64,000 bases of DNA. It comes from an uncultured Candidatus Saccharibacteria bacterium (GTDB lineage: Bacteria > Patescibacteriota > Dojkabacteria > J137). Below are positions 6,835-51,553 of this stretch, piece by piece (the stretch's first letter is position 1; each line of letters starts with the position of its first letter). The notes under the pieces were generated by a model. The model worked only from the letters and a program-made list of their open reading frames with translations, was not told the origin of the DNA and ran no database searches. Made by a program: the position numbers and the translations under genes. Where the stretch lies: contig CAZSKK010000002.1 of NCBI GenBank assembly GCA_964607415.1, positions 158,380 to 222,379 on the forward strand, given 5' to 3'.

Positions 6835-7482
6835 ATGGTTTTAAAATTCTTGAAACAATTGATTGATGGGTTTAGAAAATACTCCTTTGAGCTGTTCATA
6901 GGCTTTGCAATTTTTTTGTCTGGACTAACCTCTGCATATATAGCTGGCCAGTTTTTGGACACCAATTATCCAAATCCTGCACGCCCAGACGATTTGATTT
7001 TAGATAGCATAGACGAAATTAAAGTTCTTGTTTTAGTTGCAGAAATTACTTCAACTACGGTATCACTGTTTATTGTGCATAAAGCTTTAGCAACCAGACT
7101 CAAAGAATTGCCAGAATACTTCACAAAAATAGGAATTTTATACATCTTAAGATCCATTTCCATAGTTGTTACCCCTCTGGCGCAAATTCAGGATGCGGCA
7201 ACAAACGGTAGCAACCCTTTACTTGCAAGTTTATTCTATAAAGGTATGTTTTTTTCTGGCCATACCGGCCTGGCTTTTCTAATTTACTTTTTAGAAAAGA
7301 AGAACAAAAAACTTAAAATTGCCAAACTTTTTGTAGCTACAGTAACTGCAGTTTCTGTTGTACTTTCCCACTCGCACTATACTATTGATGTAATTGGCGG
7401 ATTCTTGGCAGCTTACTTTGTTGCCAATTTAAATGTAAGCTTAATTAACAAAAAGAACTTCAAAATATTTGATGATAAGTAG
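6835..7482 (+). CDS. PAP2-superfamily membrane phosphatase/phosphotransferase
   Basis: SGHTGLAF and LSHSHYTIDVIGG match PAP2 motifs 2 and 3. Multiple TM helices. Confidence 0.55.
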   Translation: MVLKFLKQLIDGFRKYSFELFIGFAIFLSGLTSAYIAGQFLDTNYPNPARPDDLILDSIDEIKVLVLVAEITSTTVSLFIVHKALATRLKELPEYFTKIGILYILRSISIVVTPLAQIQDAATNGSNPLLASLFYKGMFFSGHTGLAFLIYFLEKKNKKLKIAKLFVATVTAVSVVLSHSHYTIDVIGGFLAAYFVANLNVSLINKKNFKIFDDK

Positions 7483-11163: not shown

Positions 11164-11227
11164 ATTTTTATTAAGTTCAATGATTAAATGTTCGAATTCC
11201 GAATTTTAGGTATTAAAATTTAAGCTT

Positions 11228-11255
11228 ATTTTGATAGCTTTGATCTTTATTATTA
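11228..11255. repeat. 28-mer repeat, copy 1 (porB-porA intergenic)
   Basis: attttgatagctttgatctttattatta matches 27 of 28 positions with 28498-28525. Confidence 0.5.
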
Positions 11256-16775: not shown

Positions 16776-17339
16776 TTAGTGTTTAAAACTCGGTGTAAGG
16801 TAAAAAACGAATGTTTGGTAAATTTTTCCATCATCAACTTGCCTTGTCTCTTTAACTCTAAAAAGTATCCCAAAGTTAGTGTACAAGGCGCAATTTTGTA
16901 TTATTTCTTTGAAAGAATTTAGCTCTGTTTCGAAGCTCTCGCTTGTTAATCCCTCTTCCAAAATACTTGCTAAGTCGACAGTTACCTGTACAGATTCATA
17001 AAGTCTTCGTAACTCCTCCTGCTTTTGCGCTATAATTTCTTCTTGCACATCCTTCTGCATTGCTAGATATGAAAACCCTATTCTTTTAAAATCATTAATC
17101 TCTTGCCTTGTAAACATCGAACTTAATATTTCTTCAGACTCGTAATTTTGTATTAAATAGTCAAATTTTAATAATTCTTCCAAAAGAAATTGAAGTTCAT
17201 CACCCTTGTTTTTCCTTTCAGATTCAAGCAAAGACATGTTACGTGAGACCCAGCTTCCTACCGGGACGTTCTCACCTAGTATATCTAAAAATTCCTGTAC
17301 ACTTTGTTCTAGTTGTGGATACTCTGTTTGTTCATTCAT
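16776..17339 (-). CDS. Hypothetical protein (187 aa), acidic/coiled-coil rich
   Basis: ORF only. No motif recognised. Confidence 0.4.
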   Translation of the reverse strand: MNEQTEYPQLEQSVQEFLDILGENVPVGSWVSRNMSLLESERKNKGDELQFLLEELLKFDYLIQNYESEEILSSMFTRQEINDFKRIGFSYLAMQKDVQEEIIAQKQEELRRLYESVQVTVDLASILEEGLTSESFETELNSFKEIIQNCALYTNFGILFRVKETRQVDDGKIYQTFVFYLTPSFKH

Positions 17340-17414
17340 AGTTTCTTAATTATATCATCGCTGCCGCATTTTGGCGACCACAAAACACTATTGCAAAAGT
17401 TGTATAATCAATCT

Positions 17415-18673: not shown

Positions 18674-18730
18674 TAATCTTTTCGTCTTGAAAACCTTTAA
18701 CTAATTGGTATAATTAACAAGAATTTTTAT

Positions 18731-26992: not shown

Positions 26993-26995
26993 GTG

Positions 26996-27056
26996 TTAAT
27001 TGGTTATTAGTTGATTGGTTAATTGGCTCTTGTACTAATTAACCATTATACTAATT
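26996..27056. repeat. ~60-bp intergenic repeat, copy A (3' flank of fmt)
   Basis: ttaattggttattagttgattggttaattggctcttgtactaattaaccattatactaatt is about 85% identical to copy B. It has 10-bp terminal inverted repeats GTTAATTRGT...ACTAATTAAC. Confidence 0.6.
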
Positions 27057-28063
27057 TACTCATTAACTTTGTTCTCGCTAGCCAGCCAGAGGTACTCATG
27101 CCCACTACCCTTTTTCTTCCCTTCAATTTGAACTTCTAAGAGCTCTAATACACCGTTAGAAAGTTGAAGGTAAAGTTTTTTGTTTTGTTTAAATATGAAA
27201 GCATTGTCAGAAGCCTTACGCTCTAAGCCATACGCTTCTGACCTCTGACCACTAACCTCAGACCTAACTGCCTTATATATCTTCAATACCTTTGTATCCC
27301 TTTCTCGTAATTCATTTTTCGTAATTGGGAGTCTAGTCCACGCTATGGGCCACGGGTTAAATGCTCTAATCATTCTTTCTGAAACATTTATATCCGTTTC
27401 AAACTTAATCTCAGCTTTATCTTTAGAAATATCTGTTTTATAACAATATGTAGCCTTAGAATCATCTTGAGGGAATTCTTCTAATTCTCCTGAAATCCAA
27501 TTTTCAAGATTTTCAGATAAAATTTCTTTCGCAACAAGTGATAATTCATTCATTAACTCTCCTGCCGTTTTGCCCTCTACCTCTAAACCTCTCGACCTTG
27601 CGATTACGGGACCTTTATCCATTTCAGAAACCATTCTTTGAATAGTAACACCAGTTTCTTTAAATCCTTGTAAAACTGCCATTTGAACAGGAACAGCTCC
27701 TCTTAATAAAGGTAAAAATGATCCATGAATATTTAAACATTTGTGTTTAGGATACTCCAAAATATCATCAGGAATTATTTGTCCATAAGCTGCAACAATT
27801 ATAAGTTCAGGTTTAAATTTTTCTAAAATTACTTTAGATTCCAGCCTTAATTTTATAGGAGTAATAATTTTGTCCGAATCAAAGCCTTTTGATTGTGCAT
27901 ATGTTTTTATTTCAGTTGGTGTTAACACTTGCTTTCGACCAACAGGTTTATCTGGTTGAGTTACAATTCCAACTAGATCTATAAAATCACAACTCATCAG
28001 AAACTCCAATGAAGGGGTTCCAAAATCACTTGAACCGATAAAAAGAGTTCTTACTTTGTTCAT
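27056..28063 (-). CDS. fmt: Methionyl-tRNA formyltransferase
   Basis: Formyl-transferase N-domain FIGSSDFGTPSLEFL...VGIVTQPDKPVGRK and a C-terminal Fmt domain. Confidence 0.8.
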   Translation of the reverse strand: MNKVRTLFIGSSDFGTPSLEFLMSCDFIDLVGIVTQPDKPVGRKQVLTPTEIKTYAQSKGFDSDKIITPIKLRLESKVILEKFKPELIIVAAYGQIIPDDILEYPKHKCLNIHGSFLPLLRGAVPVQMAVLQGFKETGVTIQRMVSEMDKGPVIARSRGLEVEGKTAGELMNELSLVAKEILSENLENWISGELEEFPQDDSKATYCYKTDISKDKAEIKFETDINVSERMIRAFNPWPIAWTRLPITKNELRERDTKVLKIYKAVRSEVSGQRSEAYGLERKASDNAFIFKQNKKLYLQLSNGVLELLEVQIEGKKKGSGHEYLWLASENKVNE

Positions 28064-28071
28064 AGAAATAG

Positions 28072-28132
28072 TTAATTAGTTGTTAGTTGATTTGTTAATC
28101 GGTTGTTTTACTAATTAACTATTATACCAATT
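28072..28132. repeat. ~60-bp intergenic repeat, copy B (5' flank of fmt)
   Basis: ttaattagttgttagttgatttgttaatcggttgttttactaattaactattataccaatt. The inverted 10-mers gttaattagt/actaattaac are perfect. Confidence 0.6.
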
Positions 28133-28150
28133 GACGAATTAACTTCCTAT

Positions 28151-28183: not shown

Positions 28184-28189
28184 TGCTAA

Positions 28190-28410
28190 AATCAGTTAAC
28201 GCATTGAAGGAGCAATCACTCCGGAGCAAAGAGCAGAACAGCCAAAGAGCAATAGAGATGAAGAGCAAGCTTAATAGCTCTAAAACTCTCAACCTCTTAA
28301 GCTTATTAGACCTCTTCGGGTAGCCCGAAATAGCTATAAAATTAAGTGCTTGGCAACTTCGCCAGGAATTAGGGTGGTAACACGGTAAACTTCATATCGT
28401 CCCTTCTATA
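28190..28410 (+). promoter_or_regulatory. T-box-like leader RNA upstream of ileS (Ile specifier candidate AUCA)
   Basis: AATTAGGGTGGTAACACGG at 28367-28385 closely resembles the T-box consensus AAUUAGGGUGGNACCGCGG. AUCA lies in a hairpin loop about 150 nt upstream, and an AGAGA element sits at 28251. It is located 5' of an aminoacyl-tRNA synthetase gene. Confidence 0.5.
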
Positions 28411-28497
28411 AATTTAAGATCAAAGTTTCAAAGAGTTCAAAATAGTTTCAAAACTTAAAAATAAATCTGAAAATTTTCATTTTGATGTTTTTTATTA

Positions 28498-28525
28498 TTT
28501 TGATAGCTTTGATCTTTGTTATTAA
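28498..28525. repeat. 28-mer repeat, copy 2 (ileS 5' UTR)
   Basis: attttgatagctttgatctttgttatta. Confidence 0.5.
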
Positions 28526-28563
28526 CTTAAAGTATTTATAATTTAGAATTTATTACTAAAACC

Positions 28564-31542
28564 ATGTTCAGCAAACCAAACCCAAAGCAGAATTTCTTTG
28601 ATCTAGAGCAACAAATTTTAAACTGGTGGAAGGAGCAACAGATTCTAGAAAAATCGATTAACCAACGACCAGACGATCAGTCTAAAACATTCTACGATGG
28701 TCCTATTACTGCCAATGGTGAGCCTCATCACGGGCATATGCTTACGTTTGCAATGAAAGATATTATTCCAAGATACTGGACAATGAAAGGCTATAAGGTC
28801 AGTAGAAGTTTAGGATGGGACTGTCAAGGTATTCCTGTTGAATATGAAGTTGAAAAAAAATTGGGTTTTACTGAAAAAAAAGATATTGAAAAGTACGGCG
28901 TTGCAGCTTTTAATCAACTTTGTAGAGAATCAGTTGAAAAATATAGAGGAAATATCATTGAACTTGAAGAACTGATGGGTAGACTTACAAACTCTGATGA
29001 AGAGTTTGCAACAATGGATAGGGATTATATTGAATCAGTATGGTGGTCGTTGAGTGAACTTTATAAAAAAGGCCTCCTTTACGAAGGATTTAAAGTTGTT
29101 CCATACTCAACAAGAGCTGGAACTACGCTCTCAAACGCAGAAGTTGCTTTAGGAGGATATAAGCCTTTTGTTGATCCCGCAATCACTGTTGAATTTCCTT
29201 TAAAGGATGATCCTAAAACAATATTACTTGCTTGGACAACAACACCCTGGACAATACCTTCAAACCTAGGGCTTGCTGTCGGTAAAGATATTAAATATGT
29301 GAAAGTGAAAAGCCAGGTGCCTGATAATACTTACATTGTTGCAAAAGATTTGATAAAACAAGTATTTAAAGATGATCCAGTAGAAATTATTGGAGAAGTG
29401 GCAGTGGGTGAACTGGTAGGTAAGGAATATACTCCACCTTTCGATTTTTATGCTGGAAGAAAAAATGTCCATAAAATTTACGAAGGTTTCCATGTAACTA
29501 CTGATTCGGGTACAGGAATAGTTCATCTTGCGCCATATGGTGCTGAAGATAATGAAATATTTCAAAAAGTCGGCATTGAAAGCTTCGATTATTTAGATGA
29601 GCAAGGTGATTTTATTTCTACAGTTCCAATGTATGCTGGAATTAATTATAGAGATGCTAATCCAAAAATAATTGAAGATCTAAAAGCCAAAGATGCATTA
29701 TTTAGAAATGAAGAATATGAGCACGAAATGCCTATGTGTTGGAGAACAAACACTCCACTTATTTATAAACCAATAACCTCTTGGTTTATTGCAATGAGCA
29801 GCTTAAGAAAAGAACTGGTTGATAATAATAATAAAATCAACTGGATACCATCTCATGTAAAAGACGGTAGATTTGGAAACTGGCTTTCTGAAATTAAAGA
29901 TTGGGGAATATCCAGATTAAGATACTGGGGCACCCCTTTACCAGTCTGGAAATCAGCAAGCGGAAAAATAATCTTCATAGGTTCATTTGAAGAAATTGAA
30001 AAATATACTGGCAAAAAAGTAGAAGACCCCCATAAGCCGTTTATTGATGATTTTGTGTTCGAGTATGAAGGAGAAACTTACAAAAGAATTCCAGATGTAA
30101 TTGATGTTTGGTACGATTCAGGTGCTATGCCATTTGCAAGATTTCACTATCCTTTTGAAAACGAAGAAAAATTTAAGAAAAAATTCCCTGCACAATACAT
30201 TGCCGAAGGGGTTGACCAAACAAGAGGCTGGTTCTACTCTCTTCATGCTATAGGAACTGCACTTATGGATAGCCCAGCATTTGAAAATGTTGTTATGAAC
30301 GGATTTGTATTGGACGACAAAGGTGCTAAATTAAGTAAGAGCAAGAAAAATTATACAGCACCAAAACCGCTAATTGAAAAATTTGGAGCCGACACAATTA
30401 GACTAAACTTCTTTTCAACCGCAATCTCTGCAGGAGAAGATACAACTGTTAGTGAAAAAACTCTAAATATTCAAAAGCAAGAAACTATCCTTCCACTTTG
30501 GAACATCTATTCTTTCTTTACAACCTATGCAAACTTGCATAACTGGGAACCCCGCTCTGAGCTTTGTTACAACAATCGTGAAAACAAAGCCGATGAATTT
30601 CCTTGGGATCACATGCCCTTTAATGATTTGGAAAATAATTTAGACGCATGGATTTTATTACTCCTTCAAGAAACAATAAAAGAAGTAACCAGTGCTTTGG
30701 ACAAATACGAAATACCAAGGGCAACAAGAAGCGCAAAATCATTTATAGACGATCTTTCTAAATGGTATATAAGAAGAAATAGAGATAGATTTGCAAGTGG
30801 TGATACTGATGCCCTAGATACACTTTATTATGTACTTGTAGAGTGCTTAAAGCTATTTGCACCAATAACACCATTTATAACTGAATACATTTACAAAGAG
30901 CTTGTAGCTAGTCAATTAAGCGATATGCCTGAATCAGTGCATTTAACAAACTACCCTACTTCAGACACACAATTTATTGAACAGTACTCAGCTTTACTTG
31001 AAGAGATGAGAATTATTAGAGAAGTTTGTGAAATGGGCCACTCTTTAAGAACTACAAATCAACTTAAAGTAAGACAACCACTTGCGAAAGTTGAGTTAAT
31101 TAATACTAATGTTGCAGTTCCTGCTTTCTCAGATTGGATGAAAAAGATATTAATGGATGAACTTAACGTAAAAGATGTTGTAGAAGTCATGCAATTTTCA
31201 TCAAAAAAAGTTATAAATACAGAAAATGCTGCCTTAAGCATAAAAGTAGGATTAGACACGGAAATCACACAGGATCTTTTAGATGAAGGCCTTGTGAGGG
31301 ATATAACTAGAGAAATTCAAAGCATTAGAAAGAACATGAGTCTTGATATTGGTGATAAAATAACTTTGAGCTATCAAACAAATGATGTAGACTTAAATAG
31401 AATTCTTGAGAATTTTAAGGAAACTATTTTGAATAGTATTAATGCAGCTGAAATTTTGAATGTAGAAAGTATTAAACAAGACACTAAACAGGAAATAGAT
31501 TTAAATGGCAAAAAAGTTACAATTAATTTAGTTAAAAAGTAA
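28564..31542 (+). CDS. ileS: Isoleucyl-tRNA synthetase (type 2)
   Basis: HIGH motif PHHGHML, KMSKS motif KLSKSKKN, editing domain, 992 aa. Confidence 0.9.
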   Translation: MFSKPNPKQNFFDLEQQILNWWKEQQILEKSINQRPDDQSKTFYDGPITANGEPHHGHMLTFAMKDIIPRYWTMKGYKVSRSLGWDCQGIPVEYEVEKKLGFTEKKDIEKYGVAAFNQLCRESVEKYRGNIIELEELMGRLTNSDEEFATMDRDYIESVWWSLSELYKKGLLYEGFKVVPYSTRAGTTLSNAEVALGGYKPFVDPAITVEFPLKDDPKTILLAWTTTPWTIPSNLGLAVGKDIKYVKVKSQVPDNTYIVAKDLIKQVFKDDPVEIIGEVAVGELVGKEYTPPFDFYAGRKNVHKIYEGFHVTTDSGTGIVHLAPYGAEDNEIFQKVGIESFDYLDEQGDFISTVPMYAGINYRDANPKIIEDLKAKDALFRNEEYEHEMPMCWRTNTPLIYKPITSWFIAMSSLRKELVDNNNKINWIPSHVKDGRFGNWLSEIKDWGISRLRYWGTPLPVWKSASGKIIFIGSFEEIEKYTGKKVEDPHKPFIDDFVFEYEGETYKRIPDVIDVWYDSGAMPFARFHYPFENEEKFKKKFPAQYIAEGVDQTRGWFYSLHAIGTALMDSPAFENVVMNGFVLDDKGAKLSKSKKNYTAPKPLIEKFGADTIRLNFFSTAISAGEDTTVSEKTLNIQKQETILPLWNIYSFFTTYANLHNWEPRSELCYNNRENKADEFPWDHMPFNDLENNLDAWILLLLQETIKEVTSALDKYEIPRATRSAKSFIDDLSKWYIRRNRDRFASGDTDALDTLYYVLVECLKLFAPITPFITEYIYKELVASQLSDMPESVHLTNYPTSDTQFIEQYSALLEEMRIIREVCEMGHSLRTTNQLKVRQPLAKVELINTNVAVPAFSDWMKKILMDELNVKDVVEVMQFSSKKVINTENAALSIKVGLDTEITQDLLDEGLVRDITREIQSIRKNMSLDIGDKITLSYQTNDVDLNRILENFKETILNSINAAEILNVESIKQDTKQEIDLNGKKVTINLVKK

Positions 31543-51028: not shown

Positions 51029-51553
51029 GCTTAGTTGTTCGAAAAGATTTTACCACATAAATACCTATTCTTGTATATATCTTTTAGGTTCAACACTTAC
51101 AAAGATTGCATAAATCATTTTTTTTGGCATTCTTGCAATCATAATTATTTGAATAGCTTGACTAAACTGTGAAACATTTCTCATTATTATATTTAGACTA
51201 AGAAATCCTATAAATAATACGTGATTTTGTTGTTTCCTTTAAACTTATTCCAGAGGCATGACTTGGACTGCCAGCTACCATGCGCTTTGGAGCTAACCCC
51301 TTCTTATCATTTGTCCGAATCGCTGCCAGTAAGTAATCGGACGCAGTTAGTTCTAATGTAACCAACAATATACCTTCTTTTAATCTCAAGCTTTTTAAAC
51401 AAATTGCCACTTCCCCACTTTGAAAATTTAGGCGCCTAAAATCTCAATCCAAAGGCTATCAAGTATAACTAACATTTGCAAGAAAAGGTTTGAGATTAAA
51501 AGCGACAATTTATCATAAAGTATTAAAAATAAGCACAGGCCGAAAATTACTAC

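What the first reader, a model, noticed from the sequence alone, without database searches (positions are those of the whole stretch)
28190..28563. T-box-like leader upstream of type-2 ileS with an unusually long (~180 nt) AT-rich spacer to the start codon
AATTAGGGTGGTAACACGG at 28367-28385 matches the T-box antiterminator consensus with two substitutions. A candidate Ile specifier AUCA sits in a hairpin about 150 nt upstream, and a stem-I-like AGAGA/hairpin is present. No canonical terminator complementary to the T-box 3' half is visible. Instead about 180 nt of AT-rich sequence, including the 28-mer repeat, separates it from the ATG. This suggests either translational control or a non-canonical expression platform.
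Basis: partly seen in the sequence, partly recalled or inferred. Interest (0 to 1): 0.55.

Follow-up and report, generated by a model that had tools for sequence, protein, structure and literature searches.

The report
Isoleucine T-box leader lacking its switch
The leader of the isoleucyl-tRNA synthetase gene in this candidate-phyla-radiation bacterium is a genuine tRNA-sensing T-box of the rare 'tiny Stem I' type, still under selection, but a block of about 120-135 AT-rich bases has replaced the hairpin that in its closest relatives links tRNA sensing to the start codon, so how it still controls the gene is open.

Summary
28197-28406 (+) is a real Ile T-box. Rfam RF00230 matches it end to end, but at only 50.7 bits against a cut-off of 93, because the distal part of Stem I is missing. 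A covariance model built only from relatives scores it 85.7 bits (E 3.6e-21). Across 37 distinct sequences that architecture covaries strongly: 96.6% of cells are paired and 24 of 27 pairs change on both sides.

The specifier AUC-A lies in the apical loop of an ultrashort Stem I. This layout is known from actinobacterial translational ileS T-boxes. Here it is in a Patescibacteria (Dojkabacteria-like) genome with no Shine-Dalgarno sites.

Among relatives, 23 of 36 leaders end in strong terminators. The window's own clade (IleRS 67-72% identical) has 28-35 nt linkers, and in three of its four members a hairpin overlaps the antisequestrator and ends 1-7 nt before the AUG. The window and a 93% relative instead carry one extra AT-rich block (GC 18%) that folds on itself and no longer competes with the discriminator. 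No terminator or sequestrator is detectable.

The discriminator differs at 1 of 34 positions between these two genomes, against 37.5% at four-fold sites, so the sensor is still functional. The output is most likely translational, but the coupling step is not identified. This is a new variant of a known kind.

The parts
28184..28192 (+). Extended -10 promoter box TGCTAAAAT (TGnTAnAAT) of the leader. The predicted transcription start is about 28198-28200.
   Evidence: Found by the pattern search. The same TGTG(C/A)TA(A/T)AAT box sits 4-5 nt before the T-box in L118, L121, L119, L006, L011 and L113. The same motif precedes both tRNA genes and fmt in the window.
28201..28227 (+). Ultrashort Stem I: base pairs G28201-C28227 and C28202-G28226, a K-turn-like UGA/GGA, and the helix GGAG/CUCC (28209-12 with 28219-22) closing the loop CAAUCA.
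   Evidence: Aligned by RF00230, with 74 distal model positions replaced by 4 nt, and by R1. The helix covaries in relatives, with 100% of cells paired and all 4 pairs changed on both sides.
28215..28218 (+). Specifier codon AUC (Ile) followed by the conserved purine A, in the apical loop.
   Evidence: All 22 ileS-linked leaders examined carry ..AUCA in this loop. The downstream gene is ileS.
28229..28316 (+). Stem II: lower helix AAGAG/CUCUU (28229-33 with 28312-16), an S-turn-like AUUAGA at 28305-10, and a long distal extension.
   Evidence: R1 alignment. The lower helix covaries, with 5 of 5 pairs changed on both sides. Folds at -19.0 kcal/mol.
28317..28327 (+). Stem IIA hairpin CGGG-UAG-CCCG, followed by the conserved linker GAAAUAGCUAUAA.
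   Evidence: Conserved motif CGGGUA(A)GCCCGAAA in all relatives. The pseudoknot partner was not tested.
28349..28366 (+). Stem III: CUUGGC-AACUUC-GCCAGG.
   Evidence: L081 has CUGAG-CUU-CUCAG at the same place, a different sequence with the helix kept. Covaries in the family.
28371..28404 (+). Discriminator (antiterminator/antisequestrator): A1 is AGGG/CCCU, the T-box bulge is UGGUAAC (UGGU would pair with the tRNA 3' end ACCA), and A2 is ACGGU/AUCGU.
   Evidence: Aligned. A1 and A2 covary. Only 1 of 34 positions differs from L081, against 37.5% at four-fold sites.
28405..28548 (+). Extra AT-rich block that is absent from the short-linker relatives. It folds into one long imperfect hairpin (28407-28540, -24.1 kcal/mol) built from UCAAAG / CUUUGA repeats. 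Boundaries are uncertain by about 25 nt at the 3' side.
   Evidence: One contiguous gap of about 117 columns in L118, L121, L119 and L113. Fold. Also present in L081 at 73% identity.
28495..28524 (+). 30-mer TTATTTTGATAGCTTTGATCTTTGTTATTA, part of the 3' arm of the long hairpin. Nearly invariant in L081 and repeated at 11226-11255.
28522..28563 (+). Ancestral linker: the roughly 40 nt that align with the entire discriminator-to-AUG linker of the close relatives. It contains a TATAAT at 28537-42.
   Evidence: Alignment A5.
28564..31542 (+). ileS, isoleucyl-tRNA synthetase (type 2, 992 aa). No Shine-Dalgarno sequence precedes it.
   Evidence: Pfam. NCBIfam TIGR00392 at 819 bits against a cut-off of 621. 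SD analysis.

Best explanation
This is an isoleucine-specific T-box riboswitch of the ultrashort-Stem-I class, and it forms the first ~210 nt of a ~365-nt ileS 5' UTR.

Shown:
- It is transcribed from a conserved extended -10 promoter at 28184-92.
- It has every sensor element: a K-turn-based Stem I with AUC-A in the apical loop, Stem II with an S-turn-like motif, the IIA hairpin, Stem III, and a discriminator with the UGGU bulge.
- It belongs to a covarying family that is widespread upstream of ileS in Patescibacteria.
- Its closest relatives have a 28-35 nt linker, and in three of the four a hairpin shares the A1 3' strand and ends 1-7 nt before the AUG.
- The window's lineage carries one extra AT-rich self-folding block of about 120-135 nt at that place. 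This block no longer overlaps the discriminator.
- The discriminator has stayed under strong purifying selection since that block arose.

Inferred:
- Uncharged tRNA-Ile(GAU) pairs its anticodon with AUC and its ACCA end with UGGU, which stabilises the discriminator.
- The output is still control of translation initiation in an organism without Shine-Dalgarno sites, where openness of the start region decides initiation.
- The long hairpin closes on itself, so the discriminator and the start codon remain neighbours in the folded RNA.
- The OFF state is most plausibly an alternative pairing of the G-rich T-box strand with the C-rich start region (ACC-AUG-UU ... AAACCAAACCC). This last step is only a folding prediction.
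For: Identity as a T-box:
- RF00230 matches full length at 50.7 bits, E 3.5e-10.
- Model R1, built without the window, gives 85.7 bits, E 3.6e-21, and is the sole hit in 64 kb.
- Family covariation: 96.6% of cells paired against 68.5% in shuffles and 32-54% with slid partners; 24 of 27 pairs change on both sides; 0 of 500 shuffles reach this.
- All ileS-linked loops carry AUCA, and the gene is ileS.
- The promoter box is conserved across the clade.

No transcriptional platform:
- No terminator is found.

Clade context:
- L113, L118, L119 and L121 have 28-35 nt linkers without terminators. Sequestrator hairpins overlap A1 in L113, L118 and L119.

Origin of the spacer:
- The relatives show a single gap of about 117 columns.
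- The hairpin folds at -24.1 kcal/mol and keeps its shape in L081.

Selection on the sensor:
- The discriminator differs at 1 of 34 positions, against 119 of 317 four-fold sites (P = 2.4e-6) and 43 of 162 spacer positions (Fisher p = 0.0013). Stem III changes while keeping its helix.

Translational setting:
- None of 38 genes has a Shine-Dalgarno site.
- The unconstrained ensemble is 3.4 kcal/mol (window) and 3.2 kcal/mol (L081) more stable than the ensemble with the discriminator held. The gain comes from pairing of the T-box strand with the start region, and the short-linker relatives show a similar 1.4-7.3 kcal/mol gap.
- No extended -10 box occurs inside the spacer.
Against: - No helix that excludes the discriminator could be found. 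The best partner of the 3' strand is at chance level, and the 5' strand/start-region duplex (-10.8 kcal/mol) is reached by 43 of 300 shuffles.
- Predicted coupling to start-codon accessibility is weak: unpaired probability for -12..+3 is 0.63 unconstrained against 0.70 with the discriminator held. L118 gives 0.22 against 0.50.
- T-box-less orthologues carry the same C-rich K-P-N-P codons, and complementarity is not better in T-box-bearing genes (p = 0.15).
- The long hairpin shows no compensatory changes (28 of 30 pairs identical), so RNA structure cannot be separated from DNA-level conservation. Its 30-mer also occurs antisense to another operon.
- The leader misses the Rfam gathering score.
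- L081's contig starts inside Stem III, so selection on Stems I and II in that genome is untested.
- No tRNA-Ile gene was available for checking the acceptor end.
Confidence: 0.6

Rival explanations
1. Decoupled sensor. The insertion destroyed the overlap between sequestrator and antisequestrator, so ileS is now expressed constitutively, possibly from a second promoter in the spacer. The T-box is either a remnant or is kept for another reason, such as tRNA binding that stabilises the transcript.
For: - No competing helix is detectable, and predicted coupling is weak.
- A perfect TATAAT lies at 28537-42, and another lies at the equivalent place in L081.
- L006 shows an independent 224-nt insertion at the same place, also without a competitor.
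- Many close relatives (L003-L005, L007-L009, L016, L120) have no T-box at all, so the element is dispensable in this clade.
Against: - The discriminator is conserved at 33 of 34 positions where neutral sites differ by 37.5%. This conservation postdates the insertion, since both genomes share it. Stem III changes while keeping its helix.
- The only extended -10 promoter on the + strand of this intergenic region is the one before the T-box.
- TATAAT alone is common in 18% GC sequence.
Confidence: 0.2
2. RNA processing or stability control. The long, nearly continuous AU-rich duplex is a substrate for a double-strand-specific RNase, and tRNA binding to the adjacent discriminator alters cleavage or decay of the ileS message.
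For: - A hairpin of about 45 bp directly abuts the discriminator.
- RNase III cleavage of a T-box leader is documented for the S. aureus met leader (title and abstract of PMC7913692).
- The two arms of the hairpin are the best-conserved spacer blocks.
Against: Nothing was tested beyond the existence of the hairpin. There are no compensatory changes. The same 30-mer occurs without a partner arm at 11226-55.
Confidence: 0.1
3. Transcription attenuation by a non-canonical terminator. The inner AU hairpin (about 28457-28490) followed by UUUUUUAUUAUUUU (28486-28499) stops RNA polymerase unless the tRNA-bound T-box prevents it.
For: A hairpin plus U-rich tract is present, and an analogous AU hairpin with a U-rich tail exists in L081. 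Most T-boxes of this family are transcriptional.
Against: - The best terminator-like fold is only -5.9 kcal/mol, against -13 to -35 kcal/mol in relatives.
- It lies 50 nt or more beyond the discriminator and shares no bases with it, so nothing links it to tRNA sensing.
- The scan finds no terminator.
- The nearest relatives are of the translational type.
Confidence: 0.07
4. Chance resemblance: not a T-box at all.
For: The leader is below Rfam's gathering score.
Against: E 3.6e-21 with a model that never saw the window. All seven helices form, the specifier matches the gene, the promoter is conserved, and the family covaries.
Confidence: 0.01

Closest known systems
Actinobacterial translational ileS T-boxes with ultrashort Stem I (Mycobacterium tuberculosis, Nocardia farcinica; Sherwood et al. 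2015; structures 6UFG and 6UFM, as summarised in PMC7583486)
   Same: Same gene (ileS) and same specifier position, in the apical loop of a truncated Stem I that lacks the tRNA-elbow platform. Stem II with an S-turn and the IIA/B element are present and would be needed to compensate. A discriminator with the UGGN bulge is present, and there is no transcription terminator.
   Different: The host is a Patescibacteria/CPR bacterium, not an actinobacterium. The genome has no Shine-Dalgarno sites, so there is no SD to sequester. No helix overlaps the antisequestrator. About 160 nt, mostly one self-folding AT-rich block, lie between the discriminator and the AUG.
Canonical transcriptional T-box leaders (Rfam RF00230; Bacillus tyrS and glyQS type)
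   Same: K-turn at the Stem I base, specifier followed by a purine, Stem II/IIA/III, the conserved T-box sequence (two substitutions), and the A1-bulge-A2 discriminator.
   Different: The distal Stem I platform is absent (74 model positions deleted). There is no terminator. The score is 50.7 bits against a gathering score of 93.
Short-linker ileS T-boxes of the same clade found here (L113, L118, L119, L121)
   Same: IleRS is 67-72% identical. Stem I is nearly identical in L113 (GGAG-CAAUCA-CUCC). The promoter box and sensor architecture are the same. The last ~40 nt before the AUG are alignable.
   Different: They have 28-35 nt from discriminator to AUG. In L113, L118 and L119 a hairpin uses the A1 3' strand and ends 1-7 nt before the AUG. 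The window lacks the overlap and has about 120-135 extra nucleotides.
Terminator-coupled ultrashort-Stem-I ileS T-boxes of other CPR lineages found here (for example L002 Doudnabacteria, L011 Dojkabacteria UBA3081, L079 Moraniibacteria, L087, L090, L102, L109)
   Same: Same sensor family (R1 at 55-150 bits) with the same AUCA apical loop.
   Different: They end in strong intrinsic terminators (-13 to -35 kcal/mol) that overlap the discriminator 3' strand. The window has none.

Membership tests
T-box riboswitch (RF00230) | Conserved T-box sequence forming a 7-nt bulge (UGGNACC) between helices A1 and A2 | tested here: met
   28371-28404: AGGG / UGGUAAC / ACGGU ... AUCGU / CCCU. There are two substitutions from consensus. 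A1 and A2 covary in the family.
T-box riboswitch (RF00230) | Specifier codon in Stem I that matches the amino acid of the regulated gene and is followed by a purine | tested here: met
   AUC-A at 28215-18, with ileS downstream. All 22 ileS-linked relatives have AUCA.
T-box riboswitch (RF00230) | K-turn (GA motif) at the base of Stem I | tested here: met
   GC-AUUGAA-GGAG...CUCC-GGA-GC aligns to the model's gCgaUGAaagGG...CCcugGAGc. This is sequence-level only.
T-box riboswitch (RF00230) | Long Stem I with a distal platform (interdigitated T-loops) that docks the tRNA elbow | tested here: not met
   74 model positions are replaced by 4 nt. Stem I is 27 nt in all.
T-box riboswitch (RF00230) | Score at or above the curated gathering threshold (93 bits) | tested here: not met
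   50.7 bits. All class members score 37-75 bits.
T-box riboswitch (RF00230) | Terminator helix mutually exclusive with the antiterminator | tested here: not met
   no complement to the discriminator 3' strand, and the best terminator-like fold is -5.9 kcal/mol.
T-box riboswitch (RF00230) | Binds cognate uncharged tRNA through the anticodon and the NCCA end | not testable with these tools
   No tRNA-Ile gene is present in the window or in any held locus. UGGU implies an A73 discriminator base, which is an inference from general knowledge of bacterial tRNA-Ile.
Ultrashort-Stem-I translational ileS T-box (actinobacterial class) | Specifier in the apical loop of a truncated Stem I | tested here: met
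   Loop CAAUCA closed by GGAG/CUCC. The feature is described in PMC7583486.
Ultrashort-Stem-I translational ileS T-box (actinobacterial class) | Stem II with an S-turn, plus the Stem IIA/B pseudoknot | tested here: inconclusive
   The Stem II lower helix and the IIA hairpin are present and covary. AUUAGA lies at the S-turn position. The pseudoknot pairing (IIB) was not tested.
Ultrashort-Stem-I translational ileS T-box (actinobacterial class) | Sequestrator helix that shares the antisequestrator 3' strand and masks the Shine-Dalgarno sequence | tested here: not met
   The genome has no SD (0 of 38 genes) and there is no overlapping helix. Such a helix, masking the start region, is present in relatives L113, L118 and L119.
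CPR small-Stem-I T-box family (model R1, defined here) | Full-length significant match to a covariance model built without the window | tested here: met
   85.7 bits, E 3.6e-21, model positions 1-150 of 150.

The most novel reading that the evidence does not exclude
The T-box still regulates ileS by a platform not described before. In an organism without Shine-Dalgarno sites, the conserved T-box strand itself (GGGUGGUAACACGG), rather than the 3' strand of the antisequestrator, pairs in the OFF state with the start region (ACC-AUG-UU and the AAACCAAACCC codons). The ACCA that ends in the A of the AUG acts as a cis mimic of the tRNA 3' end. Uncharged tRNA-Ile displaces it. A self-closing 134-nt hairpin keeps the two partners close despite the 160-nt linear distance.
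Probability: 0.12. Interest if true: 0.75.

Novelty: new variant of a known kind. Interest (0 to 1): 0.5.

Why it matters
There are three reasons.

1. The ultrashort-Stem-I architecture has been treated as a hallmark of actinobacterial translational T-boxes. Here it is the common form upstream of ileS across Patescibacteria. It scores below Rfam's cut-off in every case tested, so routine annotation misses the class, and no paper in the held library links T-boxes to this radiation.

2. Many of these tiny-Stem-I leaders end in strong intrinsic terminators. The review literature argues that transcriptional T-boxes need the long Stem I platform to capture tRNA fast enough. These natural exceptions would let that kinetic argument be tested.

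3. The window is a natural experiment. The sensor has been kept by selection after the element that normally converts sensing into a gene-expression decision was displaced by an insertion, in a genome where translation starts without Shine-Dalgarno pairing. Working out what it still controls would show how riboswitch platforms can be rebuilt.

Tried and rejected
- **Complement to the antiterminator 3' strand.** I looked for one anywhere in the next 200 nt. None was found.
- **14-nt complementarity seen by eye (28369-82 with 28517-30).** Not beyond chance: the best 5'-strand duplex is reached by 43 of 300 shuffles, and it maps to the start region instead.
- **Isoleucine-rich leader peptide in the spacer (LMFFIILIALIFVINLKYL).** The ORF is not conserved in L081, and its conserved part is the 30-mer, which also occurs antisense to the por genes.
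- **Selected pairing between the T-box strand and the start region.** T-box-less orthologues have the same C-rich codons (p = 0.15).
- **Covariation in the long hairpin.** None was found.
- **The 30-mer as a dispersed repeat.** Only two copies occur in 64 kb.
- **Second promoter of the genome's usual extended -10 type in the spacer.** None was found.
- **tRNA-Ile acceptor-end check.** No tRNA-Ile gene occurs in the window or in 24 loci.
- **Other hidden T-boxes in the window.** None was found.
- **Sherwood et al. 2015.** The paper could not be read because it is not held. Its content is cited only through PMC7583486 and PMC11297988.
- **MAFFT on all architectures together.** It misaligned three of eight seeds, so the model seed was cut to five sequences.

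Full report
**What is in the sequence.** The intergenic region between fmt (27056-28063, minus strand) and ileS (28564-31542, plus strand) is 500 nt long. The ileS product is an isoleucyl-tRNA synthetase: TIGR00392 at 819 bits against a cut-off of 621. Its next-best matches are the type-2 MupA/MupB enzymes. AATTAGGGTGGTAACACGG is at 28367-28385, and AUCA is at 28215-28218 in a hairpin loop. About 160-180 nt of AT-rich sequence (GC 17.6%, against 33% for the window) lies before the ATG.

**Is it a T-box?** At Rfam's gathering threshold the window yields only two tRNAs. With permissive filters RF00230 matches 28195-28407 end to end (model positions 1-219) at 50.7 bits, E 3.5e-10, against a gathering score of 93. 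The shortfall comes from Stem I, where 74 model positions are replaced by 4 nt. Stem I here is only GC-AUUGAA-GGAG-CAAUCA-CUCC-GGA-GC (28201-28227), and the Ile codon AUC plus the usual purine sits in the apical loop. This is the 'ultrashort Stem I' layout. The literature describes it for actinobacterial ileS T-boxes that act on translation: it lacks the tRNA-elbow platform and depends on Stem II and the IIA/B pseudoknot (PMC7583486; PMC11297988).

**Relatives.** The nearest IleRS proteins in species-representative genomes are 63-70% identical. All are from Patescibacteria/CPR MAGs labelled Dojkabacteria, Saccharibacteria or Doudnabacteria. Several of these loci carry the same leader. A metagenome scan for the conserved IIA motif joined to the T-box core gave 35 more loci, about half of them before IleRS genes. 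Look-ups of the closest proteins added L081 (93% identical), L118 (72%), L119 (70%) and L121 (69%).

I built a covariance model, R1, from five relatives only (L113, L118, L119, L102, L091), with a structure of 27 pairs in seven helices. The window was not among the seeds. It scores 85.7 bits, E 3.6e-21, full length, at 28197-28406, and this is the only hit in 64 kb. Over 84 sources the model finds 41 leaders.

On the resulting alignment:
- 96.6% of cells form standard pairs, against 68.5% in shuffles and 32-54% when the 3' partners are slid.
- 24 of 27 pairs show changes on both sides.
- None of 500 shuffles reaches the observed values.

That alignment is fitted to the model, which favours the structure, but the margin is very large. 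All 22 ileS-linked leaders examined have ..AUCA in the Stem I loop. Every member tested scores 37-75 bits on RF00230, and L002 is not reported at all, so the class lies below the standard annotation threshold. No paper in the held library mentions both T-box riboswitches and Patescibacteria, the candidate phyla radiation or Saccharibacteria. That library is incomplete.

**Expression platforms in the family.** Of 36 non-redundant leaders, 23 end in a hairpin of -13 to -35 kcal/mol that begins in the discriminator's 3' strand and is followed by a U-run. L079 is a further terminator that my finder missed. The antiterminator 3' strand of six such leaders has a downstream complement of -12 to -19 kcal/mol, reached by at most 16 of 300 shuffles.

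A second group has no terminator and only 24-43 nt to the start codon. It includes the four relatives closest to the window that carry a T-box: L113 (28 nt), L119 (29), L121 (30) and L118 (35). In L113, L118 and L119 the linker is a hairpin whose 5' arm contains the A1 3' strand (CCUC or CUC) and whose 3' arm ends 1-7 nt before the AUG. That is a sequestrator of the start region. L121 shows no such overlap.

**The window's platform.** No terminator is found by the consensus scan or by my search, whose best fold is -5.9 kcal/mol. The discriminator 3' strand has no complement in the next 200 nt: -2.6 kcal/mol, reached by 235 of 300 shuffles. The same holds in L081 at -1.8 kcal/mol.

The spacer folds into one long imperfect hairpin (28407-28540, -24.1 kcal/mol) built from UCAAAG repeats on one arm and CUUUGA repeats on the other. 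It starts just after the CCC of A1 and shares no base with it.

When the window and L081 are aligned with the four short-linker relatives, MAFFT places a single gap of about 117 columns directly after A1. The last ~40 nt before the window's AUG align with the relatives' whole linker. The spacer is therefore one extra block. Its exact boundaries are uncertain in such AT-rich sequence. It lies at the position of the ancestral sequestrator hairpin.

A 30-mer within it (28495-28524) recurs 29/30 at 11226-11255, between two pyruvate:ferredoxin oxidoreductase genes and antisense to them. At least that part is therefore not specific to the T-box RNA. L006 has an unrelated 224-nt insertion at the same place, also without a competitor.

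**Is the sensor alive?** The window and L081 both have the extra block, so it predates their split. Since then:
- Four-fold degenerate sites in ileS have diverged by 37.5% (119 of 317).
- The spacer has diverged by 27% (43 of 162).
- The discriminator has diverged at 1 of 34 positions. The binomial P against the four-fold rate is 2.4e-6, and Fisher p against the spacer is 0.0013.
- Stem III differs in sequence but keeps its helix: CUUGGC/GCCAGG against CUGAG/CUCAG.

The leader has a conserved extended -10 promoter, TGTGCTAAAAT, ending at 28192. The same box with the same spacing occurs in L118, L121, L119, L006, L011 and L113. This motif also marks the promoters of both tRNA genes and of fmt in the window, and there is none in the spacer. 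The sensor is thus transcribed, is under purifying selection, and most simply is part of the ileS 5' UTR.

**How it might work.** None of 38 genes in the window has a Shine-Dalgarno match (ΔG of -5 kcal/mol or lower), which is below the 9% seen at random positions. Initiation here must depend on an open start region. This fits the start-region hairpins of L113, L118 and L119.

In the window the folding model gives an unconstrained ensemble 3.4 kcal/mol more stable than the ensemble with the discriminator held as if tRNA were bound. The value is 3.2 kcal/mol in L081 and 1.4-7.3 kcal/mol in the short-linker relatives. In the window the gain comes from pairing of GGGUGGUAACACGG with ACC-AUG-UU and AAACCAAACCC. 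The best duplex partner of the T-box 5' strand maps to that same site in both the window and L081.

This lead is weak:
- The duplex is not better than shuffles (43 of 300).
- The predicted change in start-codon accessibility is small (0.63 against 0.70).
- T-box-less orthologues have the same C-rich K-P-N-P codons (p = 0.15).

The small ORF in the spacer is not conserved. The long hairpin has no compensatory changes.

**Verdict.** The identity of the element is secure: it is an Ile T-box of the ultrashort-Stem-I class in a CPR bacterium, and I put that at about 0.93. That it still regulates ileS is likely (about 0.75), given the selection on the discriminator. That the level is translation initiation is the best guess, perhaps 0.6 given regulation. 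This rests on the clade context, the absence of any terminator and the SD-less setting. The step that couples sensing to output is not identified.

The rivals, in order of weight, are:
1. A decoupled sensor.
2. Control through processing of the long duplex.
3. A weak AU-rich terminator.

The element is a new variant of a known kind. It is not a new kind of system.

Noticed in passing
window 11226-11255 (+), with 28495-28524: A 30-mer (TTATTTTGATAGCTTTGATCTTT[G/A]TTATTA) occurs twice in the window. The second copy lies in the 89-nt gap between two pyruvate:ferredoxin oxidoreductase genes on the minus strand, antisense to them. Only two copies occur in 64 kb, and the function is unknown.
   Followed up: partly
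window 26995-27069 and 28071-28145: A 75-nt direct repeat (84% identical) flanks the fmt gene on both sides. The upstream copy contains fmt's extended -10 box (TGGTATAAT, 28129-28121, minus strand) and an inverted repeat (28067-80 with 28110-23).
   Followed up: partly
whole window, for example 17349-17357 (-), 18706-18714 (+), 51047-51055 (-): The genome shows no Shine-Dalgarno signal (0 of 38 genes, below random background). Extended -10 boxes sit 10-20 nt before tRNA genes and about 10 nt before the start codon of ORF 16776-17339 (-). This suggests leaderless or very short-leader mRNAs.
   Followed up: partly
L084/L104; L083, L099, L108, L110, L112; L103: Ultrashort-Stem-I T-boxes also precede genes other than ileS in metagenome contigs. 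One group is before aspS (loop CUGACGA, GAC). Another is before an unidentified protein of 286+ aa (loop GUCGCGA, perhaps CGC, no NCBIfam hit). A third is before a CsaA-like tRNA-binding protein (loop UUCCCAG). The architecture is therefore not restricted to isoleucine.
   Followed up: partly
L002, L011, L079, L085, L087, L089, L090-L095, L097, L102, L109, L114, L117: Many CPR ileS T-boxes with an ultrashort Stem I end in strong intrinsic terminators (-13 to -35 kcal/mol) that overlap the discriminator. This runs against the review statement that transcriptional T-boxes generally need the long Stem I platform.
   Followed up: partly
L006 1277-1500: An independent 224-nt insertion lies between the T-box and ileS. 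It holds a 56-aa ORF (MQDYNKLQSWNYSDEM...) with no family match, and the ORF ends 12 nt before the ileS AUG. There is no terminator or sequestrator.
   Followed up: partly
L085 (about 7350-7390, minus strand of the locus): The terminator's 3' arm contains AAGGAGG 10 nt before the AUG, and the U-run abuts the start codon. A single hairpin could therefore both terminate transcription and mask a Shine-Dalgarno site.
   Followed up: no
L001 1-55; L113 upstream of its promoter: Short tandem repeats lie just upstream of ileS or of its leader in relatives: (ACCGATA)n in L001 and (ACTAACT)n in L113.
   Followed up: no
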